Source: a virus. Taken from it: a stretch of 64,000 nucleotides of DNA. Under the pieces are notes generated by a model that saw nothing but the letters and a program-made list of their open reading frames with translations, did not search any database and was not told where the DNA came from. A program made the position numbers and the translations under genes. Shown here in pieces: positions 11,316-57,493 of this stretch. Position 1 is the stretch's first letter, and every line of letters starts with the position of its first letter. The stretch is from the IMG/VR virus record IMGVR_UViG_3300021960_000027, positions 32,001 to 96,000 of that record. One strand, written 5' to 3'.

Positions 11316-11350
11316 TAGACACAATCTTTCTAAATTGATACCATAACTTA

Positions 11351-27820: not shown

Positions 27821-27859
27821 TTGAATGAAGGCGGTCATTTAATCAGGCAAAGAACGGTT

Positions 27860-27914
27860 TGCCCAGAGACACAAATCCCCCCCATCGTGTCTCTGGGCAG
27901 ACCAACCAAGGGGG
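27860..27914 (+). promoter_or_regulatory. Hairpin with C7 loop just upstream of dnaE RBS
   Basis: 13-bp perfect stem tgcccagagacac/gtgtctctgggca; loop aaatcccccccatc; GGGGG at 27910-27914. Confidence 0.45.
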
Positions 27915-27918
27915 CGTT

Positions 27919-43490: not shown

Positions 43491-46400
43491 ATGACGGCTA
43501 TTTACTCAAATCTCCGTGCAGGCACGATCACCGATAACCCACTCGGTTCAACTGATACAACAATTAACTCTGCTGAATTTGCAGACCTTCCAGTTGTTGC
43601 TTCCCCCGATTATCTATGGCTAACCCTTGATCCTGAGTCGGCAGTTTCTACTCCAGAAATTGTTAAGGTCACAGCCCACTCTTCTGGGGCAACCTCTGTA
43701 ACAGTTGTTCGTGGCGAGCAAACATCTCTGGGTGGTAACGCATCTCGCTCGCATAGTCAAGATACTCGCTGGGTAGCATCGTGGACTGCCGAAGACGGCG
43801 AGTTGATGCCACACCGTGTTCTTACAGCCAAGGGCGACATTCTCGCGGCAACGGGGGCGAACACGATTGATCGCTTGGGAGTTGGAACCGATGGCTATTT
43901 TCTAAAAGCCGATTCAGGAGAATCGACTGGACTCGTCTGGGGTCAGGTCGATTTCTCTACTGCCAACCTTGATGACCTCGGTGATGTCACGATCACCAGC
44001 GCACAGGCAGGTCAGTTTGTTCAGTGGAATGGCACTGCATGGGTTAATGCGGTCATGCCGTCTGGGGAACCGATTGGTCACCAAGACAAAACTGAAAGCA
44101 CTATTTCTTTCTCAAATTCCACGCGTGTCTTTACGATTGCGCCAGTTTCTTCATCCCATGTTGTTTGGTGCAAGGGCGTTAAGCACACCAAAACCTCTTC
44201 TGAAACTGTAACCATTCCCGATACAACGGGTTTGTACTACGTCTACTACAACGAGTCCGGCACGCTGGGCTACAAAACAACCTATTTTGTCTGGGACACT
44301 GACACCCCAACTGCCTACATTTACTGGAACGCAACAACTGGTGAGGCAGAGTTTTTTGCAGACGAACGTCATGGGATAACTCTTGATTGGCAGACTCACG
44401 AATATCTTCACCGCACACGGGGTGCAGTTATTGCGAGTGGGTTTGGGGCATCAAATTATGTGACAGATGGCAACGGCGGTTCTGACGGACACGCTCAGTT
44501 AGATATTGCCAACGGTACGTTTTTTGATGAAGACCTTCAGGTAGACATCACCCATTCCGCAACTCCCACAGCAAACACTTGGGAGCAGGTTCTTCAGGGC
44601 GCGGCAGAAATTCCCGTCATGTATCAGGTGGGAACAGAATGGCAACTTGATACTGCTACTGAATTCCCAATTAAGGCTGGCACTGCGCTCCCTCGCTACA
44701 ACTCTGTTTCAGGCTCAACGTGGTCGCTCACTGATTTAGGTAATTCTAAGTTTGGTGTTTCGTGGATTGTTGCAACCAACAATCTTAATGAACCTGTTAT
44801 CGCCATCATGGGGCAGGGCGAATACAACAACATTGGTGAGGCAGAAGCAACGACTTGGGAAGAGTTAGACCTAACTGGTTTTCCTGTCTTTGAATTTCGT
44901 GTTTTGTACAAAATCGCTTTTCAGGTTGCATCGGGATACACCAACACAATCAAAGCCGCGATTCGTGGGGTCTACGATTTACGGCGAACAACAGTTGCTG
45001 GAGATTCAATCCCCACTATTCCAGTCGCTGACCACGGTTCCTTAACTGGTCTTGCGGATGACGATCACACTCAGTATCTCAATGAATCTCGCCATGATGC
45101 GTTAGACCACAGCACTGCGCTTGGTTCGGCGGTCGTCAGTGACCTAAGTGATGTTTCATCTACCTCACCCACATCCGGTCAGATTCTTAAGTGGAGTGGC
45201 TCGGACTGGAGTCCGTCTGACATAACACTTGGCACGGAAACAAGTGGTGATTACGTCGAATCTTTGACGGCAGGAACGGGCGTTTCAGTCGGCACCGCAA
45301 CTGGAGAAGGTTCTACCCCAACCATTGCGATTGGTCAGTCGGTAGGTACTACTGACGATGTCACATTTAACACCGTCACTGGAACAAACGGGATCATTAC
45401 GCTTACCACTTCAGGTGCGCCAACATCTTCGCTTTCTGATGGTGCCATCGCCATTGATACATCAAACAACATTTTGTACATCAGGTCTGGTGGAGCATGG
45501 ATTGAGTCATCTGGCGGTGGAGCAAGTGTTTCTGTTTCAGATACCGCTCCATCTTCTCCAGATGTAGGTGACCTGTGGTTTGAGTCGGATACTGGAGACG
45601 TATTCGTTTACTACGACTCAGCGTGGATTGACATTGGCGGTACGTCTGTTGCGAACATTGCCACCTCCGATACCGCCCCCTCTTCTCCAGCCAATGGAGA
45701 CATCTGGTTTGAGACTGATACCGCTAAGACATTCGTATGGTATGACGATGGTTCTAGTCAGCAATGGGTAGAGATTGGCGCGGCAAGTTCGTCTGCTACT
45801 GGTTCTTCTGGTGCGATTCAGTTTGCTAACGGTAACAGTGCGTTCTCCAGCGACGGTGCGAACCTGTTCTGGGACGACACGAACAACCGACTCGGTGTAG
45901 GCACTAACAGCCCTGCTGTTGCGTTGGATGTTGTAGGTACTACTGATACTGATTATTTGACTGTTGGGGGCGAGAACGTCACCCCGTATACGGGTAAGCG
46001 CAACCTTCTTATCAATGGTGCGATGCAGGTTTACCAGCGCGCATCTTCTGGTGATGTCCTTGCCTCTGAGGGTTACAGGTGTGCTGACCGTTGGAAGTCT
46101 TACCGAACTGTAAATGCGGCTGGCACCCTTTCTGTAAACACCACTGATGCCCCCGAAGGGTTCAACAACTCTTTGAACTACGCTTGCACCTCAGCAGAAG
46201 CAACCCCCACTAACGAAACTTTTGTGTCACAAGTTCTTGAGGGTCAAGATGTTCAGCATGTTGGCTACGGGAAATCATGGTGCAAGCAGGTAACCGTTTC
46301 GTTCTGGGTCAAATCAAATGTGACAGGGACATTCAATGTCTGGTTCTTCCGCTGGGACGGAACTCGCCACATTGGTCGTTCCTACACGATCAACTCTGCT

Positions 46401-47009
46401 GACACTTGGGAATACAAGACCGTGCTTGTTCCAGCAGACACATCGAACGCTGTAGCCAACGATAATACTCAGGGCTGGGAGGTACGCTTCTATCTCGCGG
46501 CACAATCAACTTGGACGGGTGGCACCGAGGCTTCAGCGTGGTCTGCTGTTTCCGACAATAACCGCGCCCCCGGTAACGCCAACATTAACTCCAGCACATC
46601 TAACTATTGGCGTGTCACAGGCGTACAGGTTGAGGTTGGTGATAAGGCGACACCGTTTGAACACCGTTCCTTTGGCGAAGAACTTGCCTTGTGTCAAAGG
46701 TACTACTTCAAACCACCACAGCATTATTACAGCACGCTGGCTTACGGAACATGGATTGATTTCAGCGCGTTCCTCCGAGCATCAATGCCGATACCTGTCA
46801 CAATGCGTGCCAACCCCAGCGTCACCTACTCGTCATACTTTGTCTACGGTGCTGGTGGATCACGGACAGGTAGTGGAACAATCTATGTTTATGGACAAGA
46901 TGCAGGGATGCTAGTCCTCGGATTTGGTCATTCTGGTTCAAGTCCGGGTGGCGGGTATGTCGGCACAATCACAGCACCTAGCGGATTTGAGGTGAACGCA
47001 GAATTATGA
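43491..47009 (+). CDS. Long tail fibre protein
   Basis: EIVKVT..VVRG, TAKGDIL, LDDLGDV, DHGSLTGLADDDHTQY, DTAPSSP..GDLWF repeats, NRLGVGT, RNLLING..ELALCQRYY. Confidence 0.85.
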   Translation: MTAIYSNLRAGTITDNPLGSTDTTINSAEFADLPVVASPDYLWLTLDPESAVSTPEIVKVTAHSSGATSVTVVRGEQTSLGGNASRSHSQDTRWVASWTAEDGELMPHRVLTAKGDILAATGANTIDRLGVGTDGYFLKADSGESTGLVWGQVDFSTANLDDLGDVTITSAQAGQFVQWNGTAWVNAVMPSGEPIGHQDKTESTISFSNSTRVFTIAPVSSSHVVWCKGVKHTKTSSETVTIPDTTGLYYVYYNESGTLGYKTTYFVWDTDTPTAYIYWNATTGEAEFFADERHGITLDWQTHEYLHRTRGAVIASGFGASNYVTDGNGGSDGHAQLDIANGTFFDEDLQVDITHSATPTANTWEQVLQGAAEIPVMYQVGTEWQLDTATEFPIKAGTALPRYNSVSGSTWSLTDLGNSKFGVSWIVATNNLNEPVIAIMGQGEYNNIGEAEATTWEELDLTGFPVFEFRVLYKIAFQVASGYTNTIKAAIRGVYDLRRTTVAGDSIPTIPVADHGSLTGLADDDHTQYLNESRHDALDHSTALGSAVVSDLSDVSSTSPTSGQILKWSGSDWSPSDITLGTETSGDYVESLTAGTGVSVGTATGEGSTPTIAIGQSVGTTDDVTFNTVTGTNGIITLTTSGAPTSSLSDGAIAIDTSNNILYIRSGGAWIESSGGGASVSVSDTAPSSPDVGDLWFESDTGDVFVYYDSAWIDIGGTSVANIATSDTAPSSPANGDIWFETDTAKTFVWYDDGSSQQWVEIGAASSSATGSSGAIQFANGNSAFSSDGANLFWDDTNNRLGVGTNSPAVALDVVGTTDTDYLTVGGENVTPYTGKRNLLINGAMQVYQRASSGDVLASEGYRCADRWKSYRTVNAAGTLSVNTTDAPEGFNNSLNYACTSAEATPTNETFVSQVLEGQDVQHVGYGKSWCKQVTVSFWVKSNVTGTFNVWFFRWDGTRHIGRSYTINSADTWEYKTVLVPADTSNAVANDNTQGWEVRFYLAAQSTWTGGTEASAWSAVSDNNRAPGNANINSSTSNYWRVTGVQVEVGDKATPFEHRSFGEELALCQRYYFKPPQHYYSTLAYGTWIDFSAFLRASMPIPVTMRANPSVTYSSYFVYGAGGSRTGSGTIYVYGQDAGMLVLGFGHSGSSPGGGYVGTITAPSGFEVNAEL

Positions 47010-47245
47010 CGACTTATTACACTCAGACAATCACTCAAACAACTGGAGATATCACTGTTGTCTTTGCTGAACTAGATAACGGCGACACTCTTTGCTTTCC
47101 AAACGAATCAGGTAACCCTGATTACGAGGAATACCTTGAGTGGGTCGCTTTAGGTAACACAGCAACGGCGTACACAGTTCCTTCCGTTGACGAGTATTTC
47201 CCCCCATCAGATTCTGAAATCATGTTCACAATGGAGGTCATCTAA
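47006..47245 (+). CDS. Small fibre-associated protein
   Basis: P...NPDYEEYLEWVALGNT motif typical of genes following CQRYY-type fibres. Confidence 0.65.
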   Translation: MTTYYTQTITQTTGDITVVFAELDNGDTLCFPNESGNPDYEEYLEWVALGNTATAYTVPSVDEYFPPSDSEIMFTMEVI

Positions 47246-47604
47246 TGGCAATGACATACAAGAGGCTTGCCGGTCCCCTGACCGCCACAACCTCAACAAC
47301 ATCTATCTACACCGTGCCTCAAAACACTACGACAGTGGTTAAAGAGTTTATGTTGACGAATTACTCTGCTTCTGCCGCGACTATCACCGTGTATGTTAAA
47401 GAAGCCAATGTAACTTTAGGGGACGCTCACATCATCATTTCTGACTTGTCACTTTCGGCAGACGAAACTTTTTCGATGTCGGCCTCGCTTGTTCTACACA
47501 ATGACGGTGGCGTAGCCAGCGCAACGACCTCTGACCAAATTCATGTGGTTGCAAGTGTCGGTAGTGCAATCAACATTGTGATGAACGGAATTGAGGATGC
47601 CTAA
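47245..47604 (+). CDS. Beta-sandwich virion protein
   Basis: IYTVP..TTVVK..LTN..; TAATG coupling. Confidence 0.65.
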   Translation: MAMTYKRLAGPLTATTSTTSIYTVPQNTTTVVKEFMLTNYSASAATITVYVKEANVTLGDAHIIISDLSLSADETFSMSASLVLHNDGGVASATTSDQIHVVASVGSAINIVMNGIEDA

Positions 47605-48380
47605 TGGGAAAGTTCCATCGACGGAACAACCAAGGCCGCGGCAAGCAGTTGTTGTTTCAGACAACAGTATTTCAAGAAGAAATCGTTGAGACTTTAGAGA
47701 CAGCAGATTCTCCTAACCCAATTTACGGGTCGGGTGTGGACGGAAGCATTACCTTAAATGGTTCTTCTTCGGGAACAGATGCGATCACAGGGAGCGGGAC
47801 TTCCTACACTCTTGCTAGAGACTTGTTTTGTAAAAATCTTAGTATCGGTTCTTCCGTACATTTGAATACAAATGGATATCGCGTATTTGTTCAGGGAACT
47901 CTTACCCTGTCTTCCAGTTCCCGAATTGGCTTTACTACCGGACACTCAACCGCTGGTAGTATTCAACAAGGTGGTGCTATCAACACTTCCGTGACACATA
48001 GTTTGGGTGGGGATAGCGCAACTGAAACGGCTACTGATCCAACAACGGCAGAAGGCGGGACTCTTTATTACAAGCAGGCACTTCAGGCGTATCGTGGATA
48101 TTCAATTACTGCCGGTTCAACTTCTCCATCTTTTTTGCGTGGTGGGGCAGGGGGAACTGCCGGTGCGGGGGGTGGAGTAGTGATTATTTGCGCTCGCTAT
48201 ATTGCCCAACGTTCTGGTTCATCTAAAATAGCCGCGCCCGGAACGCAGGGAACTGGTGGGGGTGGCGGTGGAGTAGTTATTATTATTTCTTCTGGTTCTT
48301 CTCTTTCTTCTGGGGTAAATACAGAAGTTGTCGGCGGTACAGGTTGCGGTAATGGAACCGCTATTTACTTACAGGCATAA
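47604..48380 (+). CDS. Glycine-rich virion/fibre protein
   Basis: YGSGVDG..TLARD..NL.I..LNTNGYRVFV.GTLT and GGGVVII motifs; paralogue of next gene. Confidence 0.7.
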   Translation: MGKFHRRNNQGRGKQLLFQTTVFQEEIVETLETADSPNPIYGSGVDGSITLNGSSSGTDAITGSGTSYTLARDLFCKNLSIGSSVHLNTNGYRVFVQGTLTLSSSSRIGFTTGHSTAGSIQQGGAINTSVTHSLGGDSATETATDPTTAEGGTLYYKQALQAYRGYSITAGSTSPSFLRGGAGGTAGAGGGVVIICARYIAQRSGSSKIAAPGTQGTGGGGGGVVIIISSGSSLSSGVNTEVVGGTGCGNGTAIYLQA

Positions 48381-48382
48381 TC

Positions 48383-50260
48383 GTGGCACGCACTAGACGG
48401 TTTAACAGTGTTCTTCGTAAATTGGAGAAGGCCGCGTCTGAGGGCACGACAGTTAATGATTGGTTGTTTGGTTCTGGAGAGCATGGTGATGTGACCGTCG
48501 CTAACGGTCAAACCGTCACACTGGATTCTGACAAATACTATGAGAATCTGACTGTAAATTCTGGGGGAACGCTGTTTACTAACGGCTTCCGTGTATTTGT
48601 CAACGGCACACTGACAAACAATGGTACTATCGGCTTTCCCTCTGGCTCTGCTGATGTTACAACAAACCCATCAAGCATTTCTCGCCGTAGCCATACTGCG
48701 GTCAGTTACGGAATTGGTGAGGCTTCTAATACCGTAACTGAAGGAGAGTTATATGATTTAGATGACGTTATTGGTGGCTATTACATAACAGCGTCTGGTT
48801 CTATTCGCGGTCTTCAAGGTGGCGACCCCGGTACAGACGGGTCTGATGGAAGCATTACGGCTAACGCAACAGCAGGTAATGCCGGTAGTGCTGGTACTTA
48901 TCCGGGTGCCGCGGTGGGTGCCCCCGGCGGTGCAGGCAATCCCGGTACGTCAGGTAACGCGGCAACGGCTGGTACTGCTGGAGGTAGGGGAGCCGGTGGG
49001 GGAGTTGTACTCATCATTGCCCGTACGGTTACTGGTTCTGGAGAAATTGTTAGTTTTGGTACGGCGGGAACAAGCGGTAATGTTGCGACGCAAGGTACTG
49101 ACGGCTCGGATGGGACTTCTGCCCCCAATATCGCGGCGTATGCAAACCCCGGAAATACCCACACTTCCGGTCACAATGCTGGTTCTGGATCACACCCAGC
49201 AAACAGTCTTGTACCCAACTTGAGTCACAATGCTACGGCGTACAGTGCTGGACATAACGCGGGTCACGGGCATCACCCCGCTAACGGTCCGCATGGAAAC
49301 ACTGGTCATAACGCGACGGCGCATGCGAACGGACATAACGCTGGACATGGTCATCATCCCGCTGGCGGTCCGCATGGTAACCACGGACATCACGCCAGCA
49401 CAACTCGGTCAAACCACCACCACCATGTTCAAAACCATCATCATGTTCGATCAAATCACCATCACCACACGCAAACCAACCATCACCACCACACCGACTC
49501 TCACCATCACACGCGATCAAACCACCACCACCACACCCGAACAAACCATCACCACACCGTAGGACCAGTTCGTTCTAACAGCCATCATCACTTTAGGTCG
49601 AACTACCACTCAGGAAACCACAGGTCTAACCACCATTTCCACGGGCGATCAAACCACCATCATCACCATCACACTCAGTCGAATCACCACCACCACACCC
49701 AAACAAACCATCACCACCATGTTCAAAACCATCATCATGTTCGATCAAATCACCATCACCACACTCAGACAAATCACCACCACCACACCGATTCTCACCA
49801 CCACACGCGAACGAATCATCACCACCACACGGCTGGCGACGCAGGTCACCCCGCAAACGGAGCAATGGCTCCAAATCACCACGCCTCGGTGAACTACGCA
49901 CATAACTCTGGTACTACAGCCCACCCCGCTGGCGGTTCGCTCGCTCCTAACCACAGTGCCTCGGCTCATCCCGCTGGTCATAATGCCGGTAACGCAAACC
50001 ACGCGGCAAATGGAACTCTTACCACAAATCACAATGCTTCATCGCACCCCGCAGGGCACAACGTCACTCACAACCCAAATTATTCAGGAGGTTCTGGGGG
50101 AGGGAAAGGCACTGGTGGAACTGCTACTGATGGCAACGCTGGCAACCAAGGACAAAAGGGTGCTATTATTGTTGTGACCAGACAAATGGACTCTAATGTC
50201 CGCTCGGCTCAGTTGGGCAACCACTCCAACTATGCCAGAATTATAGATGTGGATGGATAG
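48383..50260 (+). CDS. Glycine-rich virion/fibre protein with a very large histidine-rich insertion
   Basis: Same FGSG..NLTV..TNGFRVFV.GTLT and GGGVVLII motifs as upstream paralogue, plus GHNAG repeats and (S/T)NHHHH core. Confidence 0.8.
   Translation: MARTRRFNSVLRKLEKAASEGTTVNDWLFGSGEHGDVTVANGQTVTLDSDKYYENLTVNSGGTLFTNGFRVFVNGTLTNNGTIGFPSGSADVTTNPSSISRRSHTAVSYGIGEASNTVTEGELYDLDDVIGGYYITASGSIRGLQGGDPGTDGSDGSITANATAGNAGSAGTYPGAAVGAPGGAGNPGTSGNAATAGTAGGRGAGGGVVLIIARTVTGSGEIVSFGTAGTSGNVATQGTDGSDGTSAPNIAAYANPGNTHTSGHNAGSGSHPANSLVPNLSHNATAYSAGHNAGHGHHPANGPHGNTGHNATAHANGHNAGHGHHPAGGPHGNHGHHASTTRSNHHHHVQNHHHVRSNHHHHTQTNHHHHTDSHHHTRSNHHHHTRTNHHHTVGPVRSNSHHHFRSNYHSGNHRSNHHFHGRSNHHHHHHTQSNHHHHTQTNHHHHVQNHHHVRSNHHHHTQTNHHHHTDSHHHTRTNHHHHTAGDAGHPANGAMAPNHHASVNYAHNSGTTAHPAGGSLAPNHSASAHPAGHNAGNANHAANGTLTTNHNASSHPAGHNVTHNPNYSGGSGGGKGTGGTATDGNAGNQGQKGAIIVVTRQMDSNVRSAQLGNHSNYARIIDVDG
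49412..49810 (+). repeat. 105-bp direct repeat (49412-49516 and 49706-49810) in the poly-His core
   Basis: Both copies encode identical NHHHHVQNHHHVRSNHHHHTQTNHHHHTDSHHHTR with synonymous differences. Confidence 0.9.
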
Positions 50261-50267
50261 GTGAATT

Positions 50268-50510
50268 ATGTTTGAAAGCATGTCAACTGAAGACAAGATC
50301 GCTTTGTGTGATGAGCAAGTATCTCAAGTAGATCGTAACATCTACTCTTATATGCTCACCCTCGGATTAGACCCAGATGCTGGAGACGCTACAGCAGTGA
50401 CCGTTGATTCTTCCGAATCAGATTATGTACAGAGTCTTCAGCAAAGCATTATTGATGCTGTTGCTCGGCGTGCATTTATTGTCGGAATTAAAACTGCTCT
50501 TAGTGCGTGA
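50268..50510 (+). CDS. Small acidic helical protein
   Basis: AGGTG RBS; in operon. Confidence 0.65.
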   Translation: MFESMSTEDKIALCDEQVSQVDRNIYSYMLTLGLDPDAGDATAVTVDSSESDYVQSLQQSIIDAVARRAFIVGIKTALSA

Positions 50511-50692
50511 TGTTGTCAGACAGCAGTCCAACACATAAGTTGTATGCTTGCTGTTTGATGGCTGGAGTTAATCCATCTTCTCTGACTAAAGAGTGGATAA
50601 TGACAGCACCTGAGGGAACCGTACAGTACGACTTAGAAATATTTCTTCAAATTGCATTGAATGAGTTTCAGTCTGATAATCTAAATACCTAA
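50507..50692 (+). CDS. Small hypothetical protein
   Basis: GTGA and TAATG coupling on either side. Confidence 0.55.
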   Translation: MMLSDSSPTHKLYACCLMAGVNPSSLTKEWIMTAPEGTVQYDLEIFLQIALNEFQSDNLNT

Positions 50693-51396
50693 TGGCCTGC
50701 CCAACTTTTCATTTTGCTGGTCACCGCAGTAACTACATTTTGATCGGTGACGATGTGGTTGATGCAGACGTATGCGATGACATTATCTCAAGATGTTTAG
50801 CCAACTATGATGATTTCTTTTACCCCGGACCGACTTTAGGTGGGGTAGACGTTGCTACAAAATCTAGTATGGATTTTGATTTTGGGGTAGATTCTGTTGT
50901 TAGCAAAGGTTTTGATCCAGAGCCGTGGGCGACGTACGAATCAATTATGAGTAATGCCCTCACTACAATTATTAGTGAGTATCAGTCTAGTTTTTTTGAT
51001 CTTTGGCGAGTGCCTAATTTAGTGGACACCGGATTCCGTCTTCAGCATTACGCAAAAAATTACGGTTACTACAGGGAACACATTGACGGTTGTGTTTGGG
51101 GACCAGTTTCTTCTCGTACAAGAATCTTTGGTGTAGTAATTTATTTAAATGACATTGATTCTGGTGGGGAAACACATTTTCCCATTCAAGAAGAGAAGGT
51201 GCAGGCAAGGGCGGGTCGGATTGCATTGTTTCCTGCCGCGTGGACACATCCTCACGCCGGTCTTCCTGCACATAGTAGTGACAAGTGGATGATTAGTTCA
51301 TTTATCACATGCACTCCAGACGATGACTATTTAGAGTATGATATTGAATCTGGAGAAATGAAGTCCCCCAATAATCAGTCAGGAGATGATGCGTGA
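50692..51396 (+). CDS. 2OG-Fe(II) oxygenase (prolyl-4-hydroxylase-like)
   Basis: EHID..VIYLND..GGETHF..FPA.WTHPHAG..KW. Confidence 0.9.
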   Translation: MACPTFHFAGHRSNYILIGDDVVDADVCDDIISRCLANYDDFFYPGPTLGGVDVATKSSMDFDFGVDSVVSKGFDPEPWATYESIMSNALTTIISEYQSSFFDLWRVPNLVDTGFRLQHYAKNYGYYREHIDGCVWGPVSSRTRIFGVVIYLNDIDSGGETHFPIQEEKVQARAGRIALFPAAWTHPHAGLPAHSSDKWMISSFITCTPDDDYLEYDIESGEMKSPNNQSGDDA

Positions 51397-52007
51397 AAAA
51401 GGGAGAGGCAGTAGGGGTAGAGGTAGCACCTTGCATTGTCGTTTATGAAGATGTGTTTGATGCCACCATTTTTTTGCGTACTCTTGTTCAAGAATGTGAA
51501 AACGAAGAAGGTTTTCTTAATTGGACAAGAGACACTGTAGGTGATGGAGAAGTAACTGATAAGCGAACTTCTATGAGTTGTAGCATCGATAACTTGCGTG
51601 ATGCAGAAGAATATTCAGAGACGCTTAACGAAAATACAAAATTGTTGATTGATGAGTGGATGCAAATTTTCCCCAAAATTGACGACGTAGTTTGGTCATA
51701 CCGCAGTTCCTACGACCTTCCTTTGCGCGGAGATCAGGGATACCGAGTTTTGCGTTACCGAGGTGGCGAAGAATATCAAGCCCATCACGACCACGGTCCG
51801 GGTAACAACAGGGTTCTCAGCATCGTTGCTTTTATTAACGATGGATACACGGGGGGCGAACTGGTATTTCCTACCTTTGATGTAACCGTGACTCCTAAGG
51901 CGGGGAGTGTTGTTGCCTTTCCGTCTAACTTCCCCTACAAGCACATTGCTAAACCTGTAGGCGAGGATGGTTCGGCTAAGTATTCGCTTGTTTCGTGGTT
52001 TGAGTGA
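51393..52007 (+). CDS. 2OG-Fe(II) oxygenase (prolyl-4-hydroxylase-like)
   Basis: LRY..Y.AHHD..RVLS..INDGYTGGELVF..FPSNFPYKH..PV..KYSLVSW. Confidence 0.9.
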   Translation: MKKGEAVGVEVAPCIVVYEDVFDATIFLRTLVQECENEEGFLNWTRDTVGDGEVTDKRTSMSCSIDNLRDAEEYSETLNENTKLLIDEWMQIFPKIDDVVWSYRSSYDLPLRGDQGYRVLRYRGGEEYQAHHDHGPGNNRVLSIVAFINDGYTGGELVFPTFDVTVTPKAGSVVAFPSNFPYKHIAKPVGEDGSAKYSLVSWFE

Positions 52008-53515
52008 TGCATAAGCACATTGTAATTGTTGGCTCAGGAACCGCCGGACTAACCACTGCCATTAGCCTCAAGTCGTGGTTTCAAATGTACGACATTACCG
52101 TTGTGTCGTCTAAGAACATTGGCATCATTGGGGTTGGAGAAGGTTCTACTGAGCATTGGCGCGGTTTTCAAAATGACATGGATATTCCCATTGAAGGGTT
52201 GCTGACTAAATCAAAGGCAACCCATAAATACGGGATTGCGTTTGAAAATTGGACAACTCACACCCCTCATTACTACCACTCTGTTTCTCACGGTCCAATT
52301 ACTATCGGTAACTTTGCGGGTTCTTACGCCTACTGCATTGAGAACGATTTGCAACTGACTAAGACTCTTTCTTGGCGGGGCATGAAAGACGGCAAGATTC
52401 CTTATAGCGAAGACAAGGAAGGCAACGAAAATACTCATCTTAATACCAACCAATATCACTTTGATACACACGCTCTTAACGATTTTTTGAAAGTAATTGC
52501 TGTTGAACGCGGTGTGTACTTTGTTGAGGATGAAGTTGACTTTGTTGTCAAGGACGAAGAAGGTTGGGTTGACTCTCTTTATTTGAAGAGGGCTAGGGGC
52601 AGAATTAAAGCCGATCTATTTATTGACGCTTCAGGCTTTAATCGTGTGCTTTTAAAAGAGATGGACGACCAAACGTTTGTCGATTACGGAAAATATTTAC
52701 CTTGCGATAGTGCAGTAGTTTTTCCAACTCCCTCGCGCGAAGATGGAAAAATCCTTCCTTTTACTCGTTCTCGCGCCTTAAGTTCTGGATGGCTGTGGGA
52801 GATTCCGACTCAAGAACGTAGGGGAAATGGATACGTCTATTCTTCTAAGTACATTTCTGACGATGAAGCACAGAAAGAGGCGTTTGACGCGGCGGGCTAT
52901 GAGTCTGAAGAAAGCCGTATCCTTCGGTTTGAATCTGGTTACATGAAAAAGACTTGGCAAAAGAACGTTGTGGCAGTTGGCTTGTCTTCTGGTTTTATTG
53001 AACCTTTGGAGGCAACATCTATTTCTATGTCGCTACAGCAGGCTCGCTTAATTGCTTCCTATTTACCGACGTTTAATAAAGAGTCGCGATTCATGGTGGA
53101 TGAGTACCATCGACTTATGGATCAAATTATGGAAAACACTTTGTCCATGATTTCTCTCCACTACATTTCTGACCGTACGGACTCTGAGATGTGGAGAGAT
53201 CAGCAGAACGCCCCCAAGCCAGAACTGTTAGAACGGCTTTTAGGGTTGTGGGCAGAACGTTGCCCAGAGATTCACGACATGCCCCATTCTGGATTTGAGT
53301 TATTTAATCCTGTACACTTGTGGCATGTAGCGCAAGGTCAAGGTTTGATTGATAAAGACTTAGCCACTATGCAACTGGATGCCTACGGTTCTCGCGGTCC
53401 ATCTCGTCAGCATATTAATCAGGTAACTGCCGAGTATATGAGGGGAGATATCGTTGACCACCGAGAAGCACTCCAGCGACTTGCCGAACGATTTGAAGAT
53501 AGTCAGTCCAAGTAG
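52004..53515 (+). CDS. Tryptophan-halogenase-family flavin-dependent halogenase
   Basis: GSGTAG, IGVGEGS, ATHKYGI (catalytic Lys position), FIDASGF, WLWEIP (WxWxIP), GFIEPLEATSI. Confidence 0.9.
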   Translation: MMHKHIVIVGSGTAGLTTAISLKSWFQMYDITVVSSKNIGIIGVGEGSTEHWRGFQNDMDIPIEGLLTKSKATHKYGIAFENWTTHTPHYYHSVSHGPITIGNFAGSYAYCIENDLQLTKTLSWRGMKDGKIPYSEDKEGNENTHLNTNQYHFDTHALNDFLKVIAVERGVYFVEDEVDFVVKDEEGWVDSLYLKRARGRIKADLFIDASGFNRVLLKEMDDQTFVDYGKYLPCDSAVVFPTPSREDGKILPFTRSRALSSGWLWEIPTQERRGNGYVYSSKYISDDEAQKEAFDAAGYESEESRILRFESGYMKKTWQKNVVAVGLSSGFIEPLEATSISMSLQQARLIASYLPTFNKESRFMVDEYHRLMDQIMENTLSMISLHYISDRTDSEMWRDQQNAPKPELLERLLGLWAERCPEIHDMPHSGFELFNPVHLWHVAQGQGLIDKDLATMQLDAYGSRGPSRQHINQVTAEYMRGDIVDHREALQRLAERFEDSQSK

Positions 53516-54305
53516 TATTCACGAAATTCAGCCGAAACCGGGGCAGGTGTTTATGGCACCTCAGACTCCCATTTTGTTTCACGAAAAGTCGTTACCCATT
53601 AACAACACCCGCTCATGGCCTGACTGGTGGAAAGAAGTCGATTCGACTGAGGGAAGTGTCCGACGCTGTGCTGGAACGGCTGATTACATCAGCCTTGGTT
53701 TGACGATTCCGTTGTGGGCTAACCTCAAACTGCGCCCTTCCCCTAACAAGCGTCAGTGGGAGTCACAATTCGATATTGCTGGTGACCACCCATTCAGTGT
53801 TGAGGGTTTTAGTTTTGAGCAAACTGGGGCGATTCCTGTCACTGAGGTGCGCGGCATTAAGCGTGCAAACTATGTCAAGATCATTAATCCGTGGGTTATT
53901 AAGACTGCTCCCGGTTGGTCTTGCATGTTTCTTCCTGACATGTATCAGCCAGACCCTAATTGGACGATTCTTCCGGCGGTAGTCAACACGGATTATTACC
54001 ATCATGCCCATATTGTTATTAATGTTTTAGCCGAGGACGAGTTCACTATTCCTGTGGGCTATCCGATGCAACACATCATCCCGTTTGAACGATCCACTAC
54101 AGGCATTGAGATGCAATATGGTGATCGAAATGCGTATGAGATCATGGATCAGGCAGGGTTCGGCACTCCATTTATCCCGCGCAACATGAAATCTAAGTAC
54201 AAGAAGACTCAGCGTGAAATGGATGCTGGTGTTGAAAAGTGTCCTGTTGTTGGTCATACAGAAAAAGTAAAAAAACAGCGCAGGTGGTTCAGCAAGAATA
54301 AATAG
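53454..54305 (+). CDS. Hypothetical beta-barrel/cupin-like protein of the type found next to phage oxygenase clusters
   Basis: PDWWK..VRRCAG..KIINPWVIKTAPGWSCMF..LPAVVNTD..IPF.R; start uncertain. Confidence 0.6.
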   Translation: MTTEKHSSDLPNDLKIVSPSSIHEIQPKPGQVFMAPQTPILFHEKSLPINNTRSWPDWWKEVDSTEGSVRRCAGTADYISLGLTIPLWANLKLRPSPNKRQWESQFDIAGDHPFSVEGFSFEQTGAIPVTEVRGIKRANYVKIINPWVIKTAPGWSCMFLPDMYQPDPNWTILPAVVNTDYYHHAHIVINVLAEDEFTIPVGYPMQHIIPFERSTTGIEMQYGDRNAYEIMDQAGFGTPFIPRNMKSKYKKTQREMDAGVEKCPVVGHTEKVKKQRRWFSKNK

Positions 54306-54345: not shown

Positions 54346-55719
54346 ATGGCTATTGATTTCCCAAATTCCCCATCGACTAATGACACCTACACGGTCAATG
54401 GGCGCACCTATATCTGGAATGGCGAGAAATGGTTGAGGGCACAGCCCGAACTGACCTCGGTCGTCCCCACCCTGACGGTGTCGAATGACCTAACTGTAGA
54501 CACAGACACTCTGCATGTCGATTCTACGAATAATCGTGTCGGTATCGGCACGACTAGTCCTAGCCAAACATTAGATGTTGTCGGCAAACTAGATGTGAGC
54601 GACGATGTTGACATTGGTGGAGGCAACTTTGGCTACCGATTGAACGCGACCGCAGACGATTCTTATGTGGCGCACCTTGGTTCAAACTCACCGACCGCAA
54701 AGATTGACATGTTTTCTGCGGATAGCACTAATTTGTATGTTGCTACCGCTGGCGTACATTTGGACATACCTAGTTTCGACCCGCTTTTGGGTGAGTCGGC
54801 TGAACCAACTCTTAGTATCAAATTCACTGACACCACCGCAGTCAGGATCAAAAAAGTAGGAAGCACGTTCGACACCAGCCTGCTCAACGGTAATGTCGGT
54901 ATCGGCACAACCAGCCCTAGTCATACTCTTGATGTGAACGGCAAAGCCGTTGTCGGTGGCGGTGACAACCAAACTCCCGATGCGTCTGGTAATGGTCACC
55001 TAATGATTGACGGCTCTGGGTACACAGGGTTTGCTTCCCTTGATGGTACAGCGATGTGGGTTGGTCACAACTCTGGCTCTCGCAAGTTGTATCTGGCTAC
55101 TGATGAGACCGCCCGTCTCACCGTTGACGGTACTGGCAATGTCGGTATCAATGACACCACGCCGTCGTACACGTTGGATGTCAACGGAGACATCAACACG
55201 ACAAGTAAGTATTTGAGAGGCGGTAAGGCGACGGGTGACACTCTGCTGGCTAGTGGTTCGTTTAGTTCTACGGGCGTTGCAATCACCAGCGTGTTCTCTA
55301 GCAGTTATGCAAACTACAGGATTTTGCTGACAGTCAAGAACAGTAACTCTGGTGAACTTTACTATCGAATGATGAACGGAGGGACTTGGTACACCTCTTC
55401 GGTCTACGAGATTCAAAGATTGTACGCTCAGGGAACTTCTGTTGGTGGCACCCGAACGCAAGCGAACAGTTATGGTCGGGTTGGTTACATGGGTGGGGGC
55501 TACTGGTCATCTGCTGAAATGACCATTTACAACCCGTACATAACTAGAGAAACGGATGTTGCTTCGCATGAAGTGTACGGCGACAACGCTTACAAGGGGA
55601 TGATTGAAGTAGATCACTCACAGGTTGGGACTTCAACTTCTTTTGATGGCATCTTTATCGGAGCCGCGGCAGGAGGAACTATGTACGGTTCCTATCGTGT
55701 GTATGGGATAGCGCAATGA
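54346..55719 (+). CDS. Tail fibre / receptor-binding protein
   Basis: MAIDFPNSP N-terminus; repeated (N/R)VGIGTTSP..LDV. Confidence 0.8.
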   Translation: MAIDFPNSPSTNDTYTVNGRTYIWNGEKWLRAQPELTSVVPTLTVSNDLTVDTDTLHVDSTNNRVGIGTTSPSQTLDVVGKLDVSDDVDIGGGNFGYRLNATADDSYVAHLGSNSPTAKIDMFSADSTNLYVATAGVHLDIPSFDPLLGESAEPTLSIKFTDTTAVRIKKVGSTFDTSLLNGNVGIGTTSPSHTLDVNGKAVVGGGDNQTPDASGNGHLMIDGSGYTGFASLDGTAMWVGHNSGSRKLYLATDETARLTVDGTGNVGINDTTPSYTLDVNGDINTTSKYLRGGKATGDTLLASGSFSSTGVAITSVFSSSYANYRILLTVKNSNSGELYYRMMNGGTWYTSSVYEIQRLYAQGTSVGGTRTQANSYGRVGYMGGGYWSSAEMTIYNPYITRETDVASHEVYGDNAYKGMIEVDHSQVGTSTSFDGIFIGAAAGGTMYGSYRVYGIAQ

Positions 55720-55994
55720 TGAAACACATTCACAATGTTGAAACTGGCGAAGAGTACGACATTGAATTTACCGAAGAAGAGATTGCGTCGCTAGATGCTT
55801 TGCAGAATGAATCAGCACGAATAACTGCCAAAGAGAAAAGAGACATGCTTCTGAAAGACTCAGACTGGCGTGTTCTTCCCCACTCTCCATCAGATGTTGA
55901 AGCGTGGGCTGTTTACCGTCAACAGTTGCGTGATCTCCCATCTGACCCTGCTTGGCCTTATGTTGAGTTCCCTGATCCACCGGAGGCTAACTAA
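55716..55994 (+). CDS. Tail fibre assembly chaperone
   Basis: RDMLLKDSDW..W..YRQQLRDLP..WP...P.PP. Confidence 0.85.
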   Translation: MMKHIHNVETGEEYDIEFTEEEIASLDALQNESARITAKEKRDMLLKDSDWRVLPHSPSDVEAWAVYRQQLRDLPSDPAWPYVEFPDPPEAN

Positions 55995-57493
55995 TGGCTA
56001 TCAACTTTCCTGATTCCCCCTCCGTAAACGACACCCATACAGTTGGTGACAAGACTTGGACTTGGGACGGTACTGCTTGGAACGTAGTTGTTGGGGGCAT
56101 CCCCACAACCATCAATGAACTTACAATCACAAACGACCTGACAGTTGATACAAACACCCTTTATGTCGATTCTACAAACAACCGGCTTGGTATCGGTACA
56201 ACCAGCCCTGCGACGACATTAGACGTTGAAGGTGCAATCGAAGGTCACGCGATCAGCGCATCTACAGATGCGGTTCTTAACCTGAAGGCATCATACGCGC
56301 AACTCCAGTTAACAGACACCGACGACAGCACCTACATCCATTACTCGTATAGTGGTGGCGTACTTCGCCATCGCTACAACAGTTACAACGCAAATGAGTT
56401 CCTCACGCTTGACGCAGTGAATGGGAGGGTCGGTATCGGTACAACCAACCCTGCAACGACTTTGGAAGTAGCCGGTGCCGCGGCTCATATCCGTATTACT
56501 GACTCGGATACTGCTGGCACTACTGGTATTGATTTTTACGACAGCAACGGCACGGCAGATGTTGAGTTGGAGGTTGGTAACTCTACTCAGTATTTTGCGA
56601 TCAAAACCGCTGGTTCTGAGGCGATGCGTATTGATTCGTCGGGCAATGTCGGTATCGGTACAACCAGTCCAAATCAGAAACTTGATGTTGATGGCAACCT
56701 TGCTGTTCGTGGCAAAATGGTCACAGGATTATCCACATTCACCCAAGAACCGTGGGCTAACTCAACTATTGCTCTAGGTAACTACGGGTTCGTTGGGACA
56801 GAAGGTTCCTATGGGACATCGCTGGTGTGGAACTGGGAACGTGGTACAGATTCTGGTTACTACAGTTTGGGTGTCAACTCGTACACTTCCGCGGCTGGTA
56901 TCCACATGCGTAACGATGGTATTCGTTTCCAGTTTGATTCGTCATGGGGTGCTACATCGGAACCCACGACCAGAATGCAGGTGCTTGCGACTGGAGTCAA
57001 CATACTCACACAGGTACAGAGTCAGCGAATACTTCCGTTTTCAGATAACACATACAACTTGGGCGACGGGGTTTTGAGGTGGGCAAATATATACGGTGCC
57101 ACCGGGTCAGTAAATAGTTCAGACATTAGGGATAAGACAGACATTTTGGATTTGGATTACGGTCTTGAGTTTATTCAAAGTCTTAGACCTGTCAAATACC
57201 GATTTGATGACAGAGATGCTGAAGCACCCGGAGTTAGAACACACATGGGTTTCATTGCTCAAGAAGTTGCCGAGGCAATGGGTCAAGAGGCAACAAACAG
57301 AGGTGTTTGGACAAGTACGCTAAATTCTGTTTTGGAAACGACAGATGAAGAAGGAAACACTATAACCATCACAAGAGATCGTCAGGGTTTGCGTTACTCC
57401 GAGTTCATCGCCCCCATAGTGAAGTCTGTACAAGAGTTGTCGTCTATGGTTGCCACTTTGACTGCCCGTATTGAAGCGTTAGAGACTAACTAA
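55994..57493 (+). CDS. Tail fibre with C-terminal intramolecular chaperone (peptidase S74)
   Basis: MAINFPDSP; GIGTT.P repeats; SSDIRDKTDI..LRPVKY..GFIAQEV..LRYSEFIAPIVKSVQEL. Confidence 0.9.
   Translation: MAINFPDSPSVNDTHTVGDKTWTWDGTAWNVVVGGIPTTINELTITNDLTVDTNTLYVDSTNNRLGIGTTSPATTLDVEGAIEGHAISASTDAVLNLKASYAQLQLTDTDDSTYIHYSYSGGVLRHRYNSYNANEFLTLDAVNGRVGIGTTNPATTLEVAGAAAHIRITDSDTAGTTGIDFYDSNGTADVELEVGNSTQYFAIKTAGSEAMRIDSSGNVGIGTTSPNQKLDVDGNLAVRGKMVTGLSTFTQEPWANSTIALGNYGFVGTEGSYGTSLVWNWERGTDSGYYSLGVNSYTSAAGIHMRNDGIRFQFDSSWGATSEPTTRMQVLATGVNILTQVQSQRILPFSDNTYNLGDGVLRWANIYGATGSVNSSDIRDKTDILDLDYGLEFIQSLRPVKYRFDDRDAEAPGVRTHMGFIAQEVAEAMGQEATNRGVWTSTLNSVLETTDEEGNTITITRDRQGLRYSEFIAPIVKSVQELSSMVATLTARIEALETN

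What the first reader, a model, noticed from the sequence alone, without database searches (positions are those of the whole stretch)
47604..54305. Candidate new system: poly-histidine virion fibre with a dedicated tailoring-enzyme cassette
Seen: within the tail-fibre region, a His/Asn-rich structural gene is followed by two small proteins, two 2OG-Fe(II) oxygenases, a flavin-dependent halogenase and a cupin-like protein. All abut or overlap, and fibre genes then resume. Known: 2OG oxygenases can beta-hydroxylate His and Asn in proteins (FIH, NO66). Beta-hydroxy-His and -Asp are Fe(III) ligands in siderophores. Trp-halogenase-family enzymes act on electron-rich aromatics. Phage oxygenase and halogenase genes are usually labelled auxiliary metabolic genes with no known substrate. 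Inferred: here the substrate is the adjacent (S/T)NHHHH repeat array, in RiPP-like logic. The product would be a hydroxylated or halogenated metal-loaded fibre for receptor mimicry (iron-uptake 'Trojan horse'), adhesion, cross-linking or protease resistance.
Basis: partly seen in the sequence, partly recalled or inferred. Interest (0 to 1): 0.88.

Follow-up and report, generated by a model that had tools for sequence, protein, structure and literature searches.

The report
Histidine-rich phage fibre with enzyme cassette
An uncultured 118-kb tailed phage carries a histidine-packed, fibre-type protein that is inherited as one block with hydroxylase-like enzymes, a halogenase and a partner protein, which makes that protein a concrete but unproven candidate for what viral halogenases act on.

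Summary
At 47245-54305, nine abutting + strand genes lie between tail-fibre genes. They encode a small protein, an insert-free Gly-rich beta-solenoid protein and its 625-aa paralogue. That paralogue carries a 315-residue insert with 30.8% His. Then come two small proteins, two oxygenases, a flavin-dependent halogenase and a 283-aa protein. One label is wrong: the last gene has a dUTPase fold, not a cupin fold. The oxygenases are prolyl-4-hydroxylase-like, not FIH/NO66-like.

Of 57 distinct long paralogues in IMG/VR, 38 have at least 6 kb downstream, and 38 of 38 have halogenase, oxygenase and dUTPase-fold genes nearby. The converse fails: 0 of 55 loci with more distant viral halogenases hold this fibre family. 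Syn9 has the same enzyme set, described in 2010 (Iyer et al.).

Best reading (about 0.45): the insert is a metal-binding out-and-back needle of the T4 gp37 HxH kind, and the cassette tailors it. No modification or virion location is shown. The scan flagged this module before on other DNA (21 notes, at least 19 genomes). I rate it a new variant of a known kind, interest 0.62.

The parts
47245..47604 (+). p119: small protein, first gene of the conserved module
   Evidence: phrog_1276, unknown function, 7.9e-7. A homologue lies directly upstream of the paralogue pair in most related loci. The atlas shows only viral hypothetical clusters.
47604..48380 (+). Insert-free Gly-rich beta-solenoid protein (258 aa), paralogue of the next gene
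   Evidence: BLASTP to the N-terminus of the 625-aa protein: 33% over 102 aa, E 3e-9. Model pLDDT 88.8. Best solved matches are beta-solenoid adhesins and tailspikes at Z 5-6.6 only. BFVD matches are giant-virus collagen-like proteins, E 2.2e-10. A short paralogue lies directly upstream of the long one in 53 of 56 cases with room.
48383..50260 (+). Long paralogue (625 aa): the same scaffold with a His/Asn-rich insert
   Evidence: No Pfam hit. 171 relatives at E <= 0.001. 220 related stretches in IMG/VR. 16.0% His.
49133..50077 (+). The insert (residues 251-565): 30.8% His, 32 HxH motifs, HP(A)G-type flanks and a Tyr/Phe-bearing centre
   Evidence: 154 synonymous against 45 non-synonymous differences to L003, which carries extra segments of 27 and 26 residues at residues 286 and 508, one on each side of the centre.
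49410..49536 (+). First copy of a 127-nt direct repeat (residues about 343-385, (S/T)NHHHH units)
   Evidence: the repeat finder family D1; TRF period 24.
49704..49830 (+). Second copy of the 127-nt direct repeat, 91% identical (residues about 441-483)
   Evidence: A contig of run X4 joins 49417 to 49712 and so skips 294 nt, exactly the spacing of the two copies.
50268..50510 (+). s80: small helical protein conserved behind the long paralogue
   Evidence: Homologues in 33 of 38 complete modules, often a second copy before the last oxygenase. No family found.
50507..50692 (+). s61: small ORF seen only in the closest relatives
   Evidence: Hits in 3 loci only, all from the two nearest contigs.
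50692..51396 (+). Oxygenase A, prolyl-4-hydroxylase-like 2OG-Fe(II) oxygenase
   Evidence: PF13640 8.5e-11; phrog_61 4.8e-32; 3itq/5hv0 P4H 3.7e-6; H130-x-D132, H188 and K198 present.
51393..52007 (+). Oxygenase B, prolyl-4-hydroxylase-like 2OG-Fe(II) oxygenase
   Evidence: PF13640 5.6e-14; 3itq/5hv0 1.8e-8, 2jig 8.5e-4, 5c5t 0.097; H131-x-D133 aligned to the P4H motif; 27% identical to oxygenase A.
52004..53515 (+). Flavin-dependent halogenase (Trp-halogenase family)
   Evidence: PF04820 6.6e-104. PDB profile hits 9luq 2.2e-91 and VirX1 6qgm 1.2e-65. GxGxxG at residue 10, K75, WxWxIP at 263 and E333 are invariant in 38 sequences. It is the only halogenase in the 118-kb genome.
53454..54305 (+). 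p283: dUTPase-fold protein with an invariant Cys, homologue of Syn9 gp43
   Evidence: Model pLDDT 87. Foldseek finds dUTPases at E 3.3e-5, TM by target 0.6-0.7. Profile against PDB aligns only the motif-3 region. The module HMM hits Syn9 gp43 at 3.4e-18. C72 is invariant. The gene overlaps the halogenase gene by 62 nt.
43491..47009 (+). Flank: tail fibre protein (1172 aa)
   Evidence: phrog_4492 2.1e-48 and phrog_9729 1.4e-22.
54346..57493 (+). Flank: fibre-like protein, tail-fibre assembly protein and fibre/spike protein
   Evidence: PHROG tail-fibre families.

Best explanation
The region is one copy of a widespread, block-inherited phage module. A small protein and a pair of Gly-rich beta-solenoid proteins sit among the tail-fibre genes and most likely form a fibre tip. 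The long member carries an insert that leaves and re-enters the scaffold at one point. That insert is packed with His (HxH) and probably folds as a metal-zipped, out-and-back needle like the iron-binding needle of T4 gp37. The genes that always travel with it are prolyl-4-hydroxylase-like oxygenases, a catalytically intact flavin-dependent halogenase and a dUTPase-fold partner. They most likely tailor this protein after translation. Prolines in its P-G and P-x-G motifs would be hydroxylated, and an exposed aromatic or imidazole side chain near the insert's centre would be halogenated. Shown: the genes, their families, intact catalytic motifs, purifying selection on the His frame and the block linkage. 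Inferred: virion location, trimeric needle, metal binding, and that this protein is the enzymes' substrate.
For: Linkage: 38 of 38 distinct long paralogues with at least 6 kb downstream have halogenase, oxygenase and p283 within 9 kb. The 25 viral halogenase loci of this module type (39-55% identical to this halogenase) include 24 with the paralogue pair; the 25th is cut 1.5 kb upstream. The linkage survives rearrangement: the enzyme part is inverted in L074-L078 and lies upstream in L050, L056 and L071. One contig (L040/L045) holds two diverged modules. Each set of fibre, halogenase, p283 and oxygenase has its own nearest relatives in other phages (module 1: L063, L053, L038, L073; module 2: L069, L071). 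So both enzyme sets were kept. In this complete 118-kb genome the only halogenase, the only two PF13640 oxygenases and the only two family members lie here. Enzymes look active: invariant GxGxxG, K75, WxWxIP and E333 in the halogenase; HxD...H and Lys in the oxygenases. Candidate sites: the long paralogue has 12 P-G or P-x-G motifs against 1 in the short one. Of 52 inserts, 49 hold Tyr. The insert is a selected protein feature: 154 synonymous against 45 non-synonymous changes, with extra segments in both arms of the relative. His is at least 10% in 49 of 52 inserts, against a background median of 1.9%. Precedent in print: HxH iron sites in T4 gp37 (passages of PMC11705849); predicted hydroxylation of co-encoded collagen-like or tail-collar proteins in bacteria (passages of PMC2938197); VirX1 is a trimer with a large open active site and no linked biosynthetic cluster (passages of PMC8407142).
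Against: No direct evidence of any modification, of metal binding or of virion incorporation. Linkage alone would also arise if the block simply moves as a unit. Distance matrices of all module parts correlate (Spearman 0.53-0.82), as shared ancestry alone would give. The same enzyme trio exists without this fibre family: Syn9, and 0 of 55 more distant halogenase loci have the family, although 16 of those show p283 and about 30 an oxygenase by my count of the listing. Four cultured phage halogenase loci lack the family, and tblastn found it in none of 50,697 phage records. Trp, the family's classic substrate, is absent from this insert and present in only 28 of 52 inserts. No flavin-dependent halogenase acting on His is known to me (recalled). 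The scaffold domain is not phage-only: one fused form carries an O-acetyltransferase N-terminus. Structural matches of the scaffold are weak (best Z 6.6). The long protein itself was not modelled.
Confidence: 0.45

Rival explanations
1. The enzymes form a small biosynthetic or host-modifying unit, as proposed for Syn9. They would hydroxylate and halogenate an amino-acid-derived small molecule or a host envelope component. They sit beside the fibre genes only because both are accessory, host-range-linked cargo of the same variable island and move together.
For: Iyer et al. 2010 proposed secondary-metabolite synthesis for the Syn9 cluster of ten dioxygenases, two halogenases and a dUTPase-fold protein (passages read). 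The trio occurs without this fibre family in Syn9 and in 55 of the 80 best halogenase loci, often with 3-5 tandem halogenases. Halogenase and oxygenase are also paired in P-SSM2, HTVC008M and S-H38, away from any family member. VirX1 accepts many small aromatics.
Against: 38 of 38 linkage, kept through inversion and reordering. Two diverged enzyme sets are kept in one genome, each beside its own fibre pair. No peptide synthetase, carrier protein or exporter lies in the block. Even in Syn9 and in 14 of 55 non-module loci, Gly-rich fibre-like proteins lie nearby.
Confidence: 0.3
2. The His-rich protein is not a substrate but a helper. It would act as a metal store or chaperone, for example supplying Fe(II) to the oxygenases. 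Alternatively it is a plain metal-stabilised structural fibre that needs no tailoring, and the enzymes act elsewhere.
For: HxH-rich fibres bind iron without any enzymatic tailoring in T4 gp37. 2OG oxygenases need Fe(II) (established). The insert has 32 HxH motifs.
Against: The scaffold is a beta-solenoid of adhesin type placed among fibre genes. Known metallochaperones do not have that form (recalled). This reading does not explain why a halogenase and a dUTPase-fold protein are always present too.
Confidence: 0.12
3. The cassette acts on nucleotides or DNA. The dUTPase-fold protein would bind a (deoxy)nucleotide that the oxygenases and the halogenase modify.
For: dUTPase fold with the motif-3 Asp-Tyr kept, and a GFG near the C-terminus. 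Phage 2OG oxygenases include nucleic-acid modifiers (PMC2938197 introduction).
Against: Only the motif-3/4 region aligns to dUTPases, at E 0.045 or worse, and Pfam gives no dUTPase hit. The oxygenases are P4H-like, not TET/JBP- or AlkB-like. No kinase, synthase or glycosyltransferase of known hypermodification pathways lies in the block. A nucleotide role gives no reason for the tie to the fibre pair.
Confidence: 0.05

Closest known systems
Syn9-type cyanophage neighbourhood of tandem 2OG dioxygenases, Trp-type halogenases and a dUTPase-fold protein (Iyer, Abhiman, de Souza, Aravind 2010, PMC2938197)
   Same: Same three enzyme kinds, in the same local order of halogenase then dUTPase-fold protein. 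p283 is a homologue of Syn9 gp43 (3.4e-18), oxygenase A/B of gp50 (about 5e-20) and the halogenase of gp41/gp42. In Syn9 the cluster also follows the fibre genes and Gly-rich proteins gp36, gp38 and gp39.
   Different: Here there are two oxygenases and one halogenase, against ten and two. No JmjC member is present. The block is welded to a specific Gly-rich beta-solenoid pair with a His-rich insert, which my HMM does not find in Syn9. The authors proposed secondary-metabolite synthesis, not fibre tailoring. Their Figure 4 and supplement were not visible to me.
T4 gp37 receptor-binding tip needle with HxH iron sites, and the iron 'Trojan horse' idea
   Same: A fibre-region protein with many HxH motifs in a segment that goes out and comes back. 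Length changes occur on both sides of the centre. Metal-zipped needles of this kind are documented for T4 (passages of PMC11705849).
   Different: No sequence relation was found. His density here is far higher (runs of 3-6 His, 30.8% of the insert). Trimer, needle and metal are inferred, not modelled. T4 has no tailoring enzymes.
VirX1, the flavin-dependent halogenase of cyanophage Syn10 (PDB 6qgm)
   Same: Same family (profile E 1.2e-65) and the same catalytic motifs. It is viral and its natural substrate is unknown.
   Different: Only a distant relative: cyanophage halogenases are about 25-34% identical to this one. Its genomic setting lacks this fibre family.
Peptidyl prolyl 4-hydroxylases acting on collagen-like or Pro-rich proteins (Bacillus anthracis P4H 3itq/5hv0, Chlamydomonas P4H 2jig, PBCV-1 viral P4H 5c5t)
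   Same: Nearest solved relatives of both oxygenases, with HxD...H and Lys kept. The neighbouring protein has Gly-x-Pro-like and P-x-G motifs, and some relatives carry a true collagen Pfam domain.
   Different: Similarity is weak (E 1e-8 to 0.1). The substrate is untested. That PBCV-1 P4H hydroxylates viral Pro-rich repeats is recalled, not read here.
RiPP tailoring with peptide halogenases (MibH, SrpI, ChlH)
   Same: The logic of a gene-encoded substrate followed by dedicated tailoring enzymes.
   Different: The candidate substrate is a 625-aa folded protein. No leader peptide, recognition element, protease or exporter was found.

Membership tests
Flavin-dependent (Trp-type) halogenase, PF04820 | Profile match over the curated cut-off | tested here: met
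   348.7 bits against a cut-off of 21; PDB profile hits down to 2.2e-91.
Flavin-dependent (Trp-type) halogenase, PF04820 | GxGxxG flavin site, WxWxIP motif, catalytic Lys and conserved Glu | tested here: met
   G10/G12/G15, K75, W263..P268 and E333 are invariant in 38 sequences. That K75 and E333 equal PrnA K79 and E346 is recalled.
Flavin-dependent (Trp-type) halogenase, PF04820 | Halogenating activity and free-Trp substrate | not testable with these tools
   Needs an enzyme assay. The adjacent insert holds no Trp.
Prolyl-4-hydroxylase-type 2OG-Fe(II) oxygenase, PF13640 | Profile match over the cut-off, with P4H as nearest solved relatives | tested here: met
   43.1 and 53.3 bits against a cut-off of 27; 3itq/5hv0 at 3.7e-6 and 1.8e-8.
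Prolyl-4-hydroxylase-type 2OG-Fe(II) oxygenase, PF13640 | HxD...H iron triad and 2OG-binding Lys | tested here: met
   Oxygenase A: H130, D132, H188 and K198, all aligned to 3itq. Oxygenase B: H131 and D133 aligned; its distal H184 and K196 are placed by position only.
Prolyl-4-hydroxylase-type 2OG-Fe(II) oxygenase, PF13640 | Hydroxylates peptidyl proline | not testable with these tools
   Needs an assay or mass spectrometry.
   Pfam gave only PF13640 for both oxygenases at E <= 0.01. All PDB hits with E <= 1e-3 are P4H.
   Model pLDDT 87. All listed Foldseek PDB rows are dUTPases or dCTP deaminases. No Pfam hit.
dUTPase (trimeric dUTP pyrophosphatase) | dUTPase fold | tested here: met
   Foldseek E 3.3e-5, probability 1.0, TM by target 0.6-0.73.
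dUTPase (trimeric dUTP pyrophosphatase) | The five conserved sequence motifs | tested here: not met
   No Pfam dUTPase hit. The profile aligns only the motif-3/4 stretch, at E 0.045 or worse. Asp-Tyr of motif 3 is kept, but the motif-4 residues aligned differ.
Syn9 gp43-like dUTPase-fold protein with conserved Cys (Iyer et al. 2010) | Homology to gp43, a conserved Cys, and a position next to the halogenase | tested here: met
   HMM hit to gp43 at 3.4e-18. C72 invariant and C127 nearly invariant in 41 sequences. The gene is adjacent to or overlaps the halogenase gene in the loci listed.
Syn9-type dioxygenase-halogenase neighbourhood | Long tandem array of unrelated dioxygenases including a MINA/No66 JmjC member | tested here: not met
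   Only two PF13640 genes in the whole genome and no JmjC hit.
T4 gp37-type HxH metal needle | Repeated HxH motifs in an out-and-back segment | tested here: inconclusive
   32 HxH motifs. The insert sits at one point of the scaffold, and the relative has extra segments on both sides of the centre. No model of the long protein was made.
T4 gp37-type HxH metal needle | Trimer with octahedral metal sites; homology to gp37 | not tested
No gp37 family appeared in PHROGs or Pfam.
Collagen triple-helix repeat, PF01391 | Profile match | tested here: not met
   No hit for the window's protein. Eight listed relatives carry PF01391.
RiPP biosynthetic cluster | Short precursor with leader peptide, recognition element and protease or exporter | tested here: not met
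   The candidate substrate is a 625-aa protein. The small ORFs and neighbours hit no such family.

The most novel reading that the evidence does not exclude
This module is a genetically dedicated system that chemically tailors a phage receptor-binding protein. P4H-like enzymes and a flavin halogenase would hydroxylate and halogenate a metal-loaded poly-His needle on the fibre tip. Each fibre variant would carry its own cognate enzyme set. If so, the natural substrate of one large clade of viral halogenases is a virion protein, not a metabolite. That would make virion-protein halogenation a new layer of host-range variation.
Probability: 0.35. Interest if true: 0.85.

Novelty: new variant of a known kind. 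Interest (0 to 1): 0.62.

Why it matters
Halogenase genes have been noted in cyanophage genomes since 2005 and are filed as auxiliary metabolic genes with no known substrate. Passages of PMC2984593 and PMC10452541 say so, and the review PMC8407142 lists no linked gene cluster for VirX1. This module gives one clade of these enzymes a specific, gene-encoded candidate substrate that can be cloned and tested by mass spectrometry. If the candidate is right, phages would tune an adsorption organelle by enzymatic hydroxylation and halogenation. To my knowledge that has not been shown for any phage. It would also bear on the debated role of metal-binding fibres in marine iron cycling. If it is wrong, the finding still defines a widespread, sharply bounded nine-gene module and a new His-rich fibre-type family that is absent from cultured phage records.

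Tried and rejected
Near-identical DNA in 50,697 phage records: none. tblastn of the whole His protein and of its N-domain against the same records: none; the low-complexity filter may hide part of it.

I used the search for related loci on IMG/VR instead.

Profile of the short paralogue against PDB sequences: nothing (one row at E 0.29). Foldseek against PDB: no row at E <= 0.001.

Complex prediction of the halogenase with p283: no verdict (score 0.00, controls not run). This counts neither for nor against binding.

Atlas look-ups of s80 and p119: only unnamed viral or bacterial clusters.

Search for relatives through the 804-aa upstream protein, to test whether the block is optional on one backbone: no stretch matched.

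PHROG scan of five larger proteins that carry the scaffold domain (C-terminal in at least four): no tail-fibre family; one is fused to an O-acetyltransferase. I therefore dropped the argument that the domain is typically a fibre C-terminus.

Sequencing runs: no RNA holder listed, so nothing can be said on expression. The contig of X4 that skips 294 nt may be an assembler collapse across a 53-nt shared stretch, so I do not claim a length polymorphism.

Half-against-half similarity of inserts as a general sign of two arms: z > 3 in only 15 of 52, so this is not a family-wide rule.

Trp as the universal halogenation site: rejected (28 of 52 inserts, none here).

Literature searches for the fibre-halogenase link found no paper that reports it. 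These cover only the held library. Supplements, and Figure 4 of PMC2938197, could not be seen and may list neighbouring Gly-rich genes.

Rows dropped before counts: identical long paralogues (same first 150 residues) were merged, 82 to 57. The 19 with under 6 kb downstream were counted apart; 13 of those 19 still show an enzyme. In one search inserts under 40 residues and duplicates were left out.

Full report
WHAT IS THERE. The window is bases 32001-96000 of a 117,937-bp virus record with direct terminal repeats, rated complete. It is a tailed phage. It has a baseplate wedge protein, a DnaE-type polymerase, a large terminase and several tail-fibre genes. Its polymerase and terminase are only about 31-33% identical to those of the best-matching cultured phages, among them actinobacterial myoviruses. 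No near-identical DNA exists among 50,697 phage records.

Between a 1172-aa tail fibre gene (43491-47009) and three further fibre-related genes (54346-57493) lie nine abutting + strand genes. They are p119 (47245-47604), a 258-aa protein (47604-48380) and a 625-aa His-rich protein (48383-50260). Then come two small ORFs (50268-50510, 50507-50692) and two PF13640 oxygenases (50692-51396, 51393-52007). Last are a PF04820 halogenase (52004-53515) and a 283-aa protein (53454-54305). The block has fewer promoter-like and terminator-like sites than shuffled sequence.

THE HIS-RICH PROTEIN. Its first 100 or so residues are paralogous to the 258-aa neighbour (33% identity, E 3e-9). Both proteins end in similar Gly-rich strands. 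The long protein is therefore the same scaffold with an insert of about 315 residues (251-565). The insert is 30.8% His and 13.7% Asn. It has 16 runs of three or more His, ten (S/T)NHHHH units and 32 HxH motifs, with an 8-residue period (24 nt).

Two 127-nt segments (49410-49536 and 49704-49830) are 91% identical direct repeats. They flank a centre that holds the array's only Tyr and Phe.

The His frame is real. Two close relatives (halogenase 91% identical) keep the same gene order and a 689-aa version of the protein. Over the insert, window and relative differ at 154 synonymous and 45 non-synonymous codons. All indels are in frame. The two largest, 27 and 26 residues, lie at residues 286 and 508, one on each side of the centre. 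That pattern is what a hairpin-like, out-and-back segment with paired arms would show.

THE FAMILY. A word-indexed search with residues 1-250 found 171 proteins at E <= 0.001 among 8000 candidates scored. All 25 that I read have a His/Asn/Pro/Gly-rich centre. IMG/VR holds 220 related stretches, of which the best 80 were fetched.

In 52 distinct inserts His has a median of 18.8% and is at least 10% in 49. The background median for other ORFs of the same loci is 1.9%, and for the short paralogues 0.8%. His-richness is thus a property of the family, and the window's protein is its extreme.

A full HMMER scan with the short-paralogue profile found 1037 cluster representatives at E <= 0.001 and 140 at E <= 1e-10. 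The family is absent from cultured phage records by tblastn.

The short paralogue models confidently (pLDDT 88.8) as a beta-solenoid. Solved matches are weak: best Z 6.6, to adhesins, bactofilin and tailspikes, and no Foldseek row at E <= 0.001. Predicted viral structures match better, among them Pandoravirus and Orpheovirus collagen-like proteins at E 2.2e-10 to 7.4e-8. One fused form carries an O-acetyltransferase. So 'fibre' rests on gene context and fold type, not on proof.

THE ENZYMES. The halogenase is a regular member of the Trp-halogenase family (PDB 9luq 2.2e-91, VirX1 1.2e-65). Its flavin motif, Lys75, WxWxIP and Glu333 are invariant across 38 sequences.

Both oxygenases have prolyl 4-hydroxylases as their nearest solved relatives: 3itq/5hv0 at 1.8e-8 and 3.7e-6, 2jig, and the viral 5c5t. 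Both keep the HxD...H iron site and the Lys. They are not JmjC, FIH or NO66-type enzymes.

The 283-aa protein is not a cupin. Its model (pLDDT 87) has a dUTPase fold (Foldseek E 3.3e-5). Only the motif-3 region aligns to dUTPases by sequence. It has an invariant Cys and is a homologue of Syn9 gp43 (3.4e-18).

In the whole genome these are the only halogenase, the only PF13640 oxygenases and the only members of the scaffold family.

LINKAGE. I built HMMs from the window's proteins and scanned the ORFs of 82 loci. The order p119, short paralogue, long paralogue, s80, oxygenase, (variable genes), halogenase, p283, (s80), oxygenase recurs throughout.

After merging identical copies there are 57 distinct long paralogues. 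Of these, 38 have at least 6 kb downstream, and 38 of 38 have halogenase, oxygenase and p283 within 9 kb. Of the 38, 33 have s80. A short paralogue lies directly upstream in 53 of 56 cases. Of the 19 truncated cases, 13 still show an enzyme.

The linkage survives inversion of the enzyme part (L074-L078) and its placement upstream (L050, L056, L071). One contig carries two diverged modules. Each module's fibre, halogenase, p283 and oxygenase find their nearest relatives in the same other phages. The modules are therefore old, separately inherited blocks, and both enzyme sets were kept.

Other loci add further enzymes inside the block. These include a methyltransferase-like 235-aa gene in 22 loci and a further oxygenase-like gene in 16.

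THE CONVERSE. Of the best 80, 25 are of the module type (39-55% identical). Of those 25, 24 show the paralogue pair, and the last is cut 1.5 kb upstream. The other 55 (32-40% identical) show the family in 0 cases. They often have 3-5 tandem halogenases with oxygenases and p283. Fourteen of the 55 have Gly-rich ORFs of about 170-500 aa nearby.

Cultured phages behave the same way. S-H38, P-SSM2, HTVC008M and S-PM2 lack the family. Syn9 has halogenases gp41 and gp42, gp43 (the p283 homologue) and oxygenases directly behind its fibre genes and Gly-rich gp36, gp38 and gp39.

The enzyme trio is therefore older and wider than its tie to this fibre family. One halogenase clade is bound to the family.

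WHAT IS KNOWN. Iyer et al. [quoted passage not shown] They proposed synthesis of halogenated secondary metabolites. For bacterial operons they proposed that co-encoded collagen-like or tail-collar proteins are substrates of 2OG dioxygenases.

HxH iron sites of T4 gp37 and the iron Trojan-horse idea are in print (PMC11705849, passages). VirX1 of Syn10 is a trimer with a large open site and no linked gene cluster (PMC8407142, passages). Reviews still treat viral halogenases as metabolic genes of unknown role (PMC2984593 and PMC10452541, passages).

My searches of the held library found no paper that links a viral halogenase to a fibre-type protein. Earlier notes of this scan describe the same module on other DNA: 21 notes in at least 19 genomes. 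One of them led me to the 2010 paper, which I then read myself.

READING. Most likely (about 0.45) the long paralogue is a fibre-tip protein whose insert forms a metal-zipped needle of the gp37 kind. The cassette would tailor it, with P4H-like hydroxylation at its 12 P-G or P-x-G motifs (the short paralogue has 1). The halogenase would act on an exposed Tyr, Phe or His near the centre.

The main rival (about 0.3) is the metabolite or host-modification model, with linkage arising from shared mobility. The remaining weight goes to a helper or purely structural role for the His protein (0.12) and to a nucleotide substrate (0.05).

Nothing here shows a modification, a bound metal, a trimer or presence in virions. 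The habitat labels of the coded runs that hold the stretch are estuary and marine metagenomes. No RNA run was listed.

Noticed in passing
window 49417-49712: A 69.7-kb contig of coded run X4 matches the stretch with no other differences but joins 49417 to 49712. It thus skips 294 nt (98 codons), exactly the spacing of the two 127-nt direct repeats. This is either a natural length variant of the His array or an assembler collapse across a 53-nt shared stretch.
   Followed up: partly
window 57707-59974: A 755-aa Ser/Ala/Val/Gly-rich ORF directly after the fibre genes, with no PHROG hit at E <= 0.001. It is a second low-complexity protein in the structural region.
   Followed up: no
L040 and L045, 1-16400: Two complete, diverged modules lie in tandem on one 100-kb viral contig, each with a fibre pair, s80, an oxygenase, a halogenase and p283. 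Each module has different nearest relatives.
   Followed up: yes
L006 13151-13849 and 21 other loci: A gene of about 235 aa with a methyltransferase-like motif sits between the first oxygenase and the halogenase in 22 loci. An acidic protein of about 140 aa follows the long paralogue in 46 loci. Neither is present in the window.
   Followed up: partly
L118, L123, L130, L136 and similar loci: Viral contigs with 4-5 tandem halogenase genes plus oxygenases. Some have arrays of two or three proteins of about 300-380 aa with 30-37% Gly nearby. This is a separate, Syn9-like type of cluster.
   Followed up: partly
phage records of Halorubrum and Haloarcula viruses (HF1, HF2, HRTV and HCTV series): The dUTPase-fold protein p283 has weak tblastn matches (22-27% identity, E 1e-7 to 1e-3) to hypothetical proteins of 42 haloarchaeal virus records, far from any cyanophage context.
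   Followed up: no
L088 (Syn9) 11150-12328, gp39: The annotated gp39 translation repeats its Gly-rich domain after a hydrophobic, Cys-rich junction. It looks like a tandem duplication read through in one frame.
   Followed up: no
window 27859-31560 and 38329-40329: The DnaE-type polymerase and the large terminase are about 31-33% identical to their best matches among cultured phages. The terminase hits are mostly Mycobacterium, Gordonia and Rhodococcus phages, with eight Microcystis phage records also among them. The host is unknown, and no tRNA gene lies in the window.
   Followed up: partly
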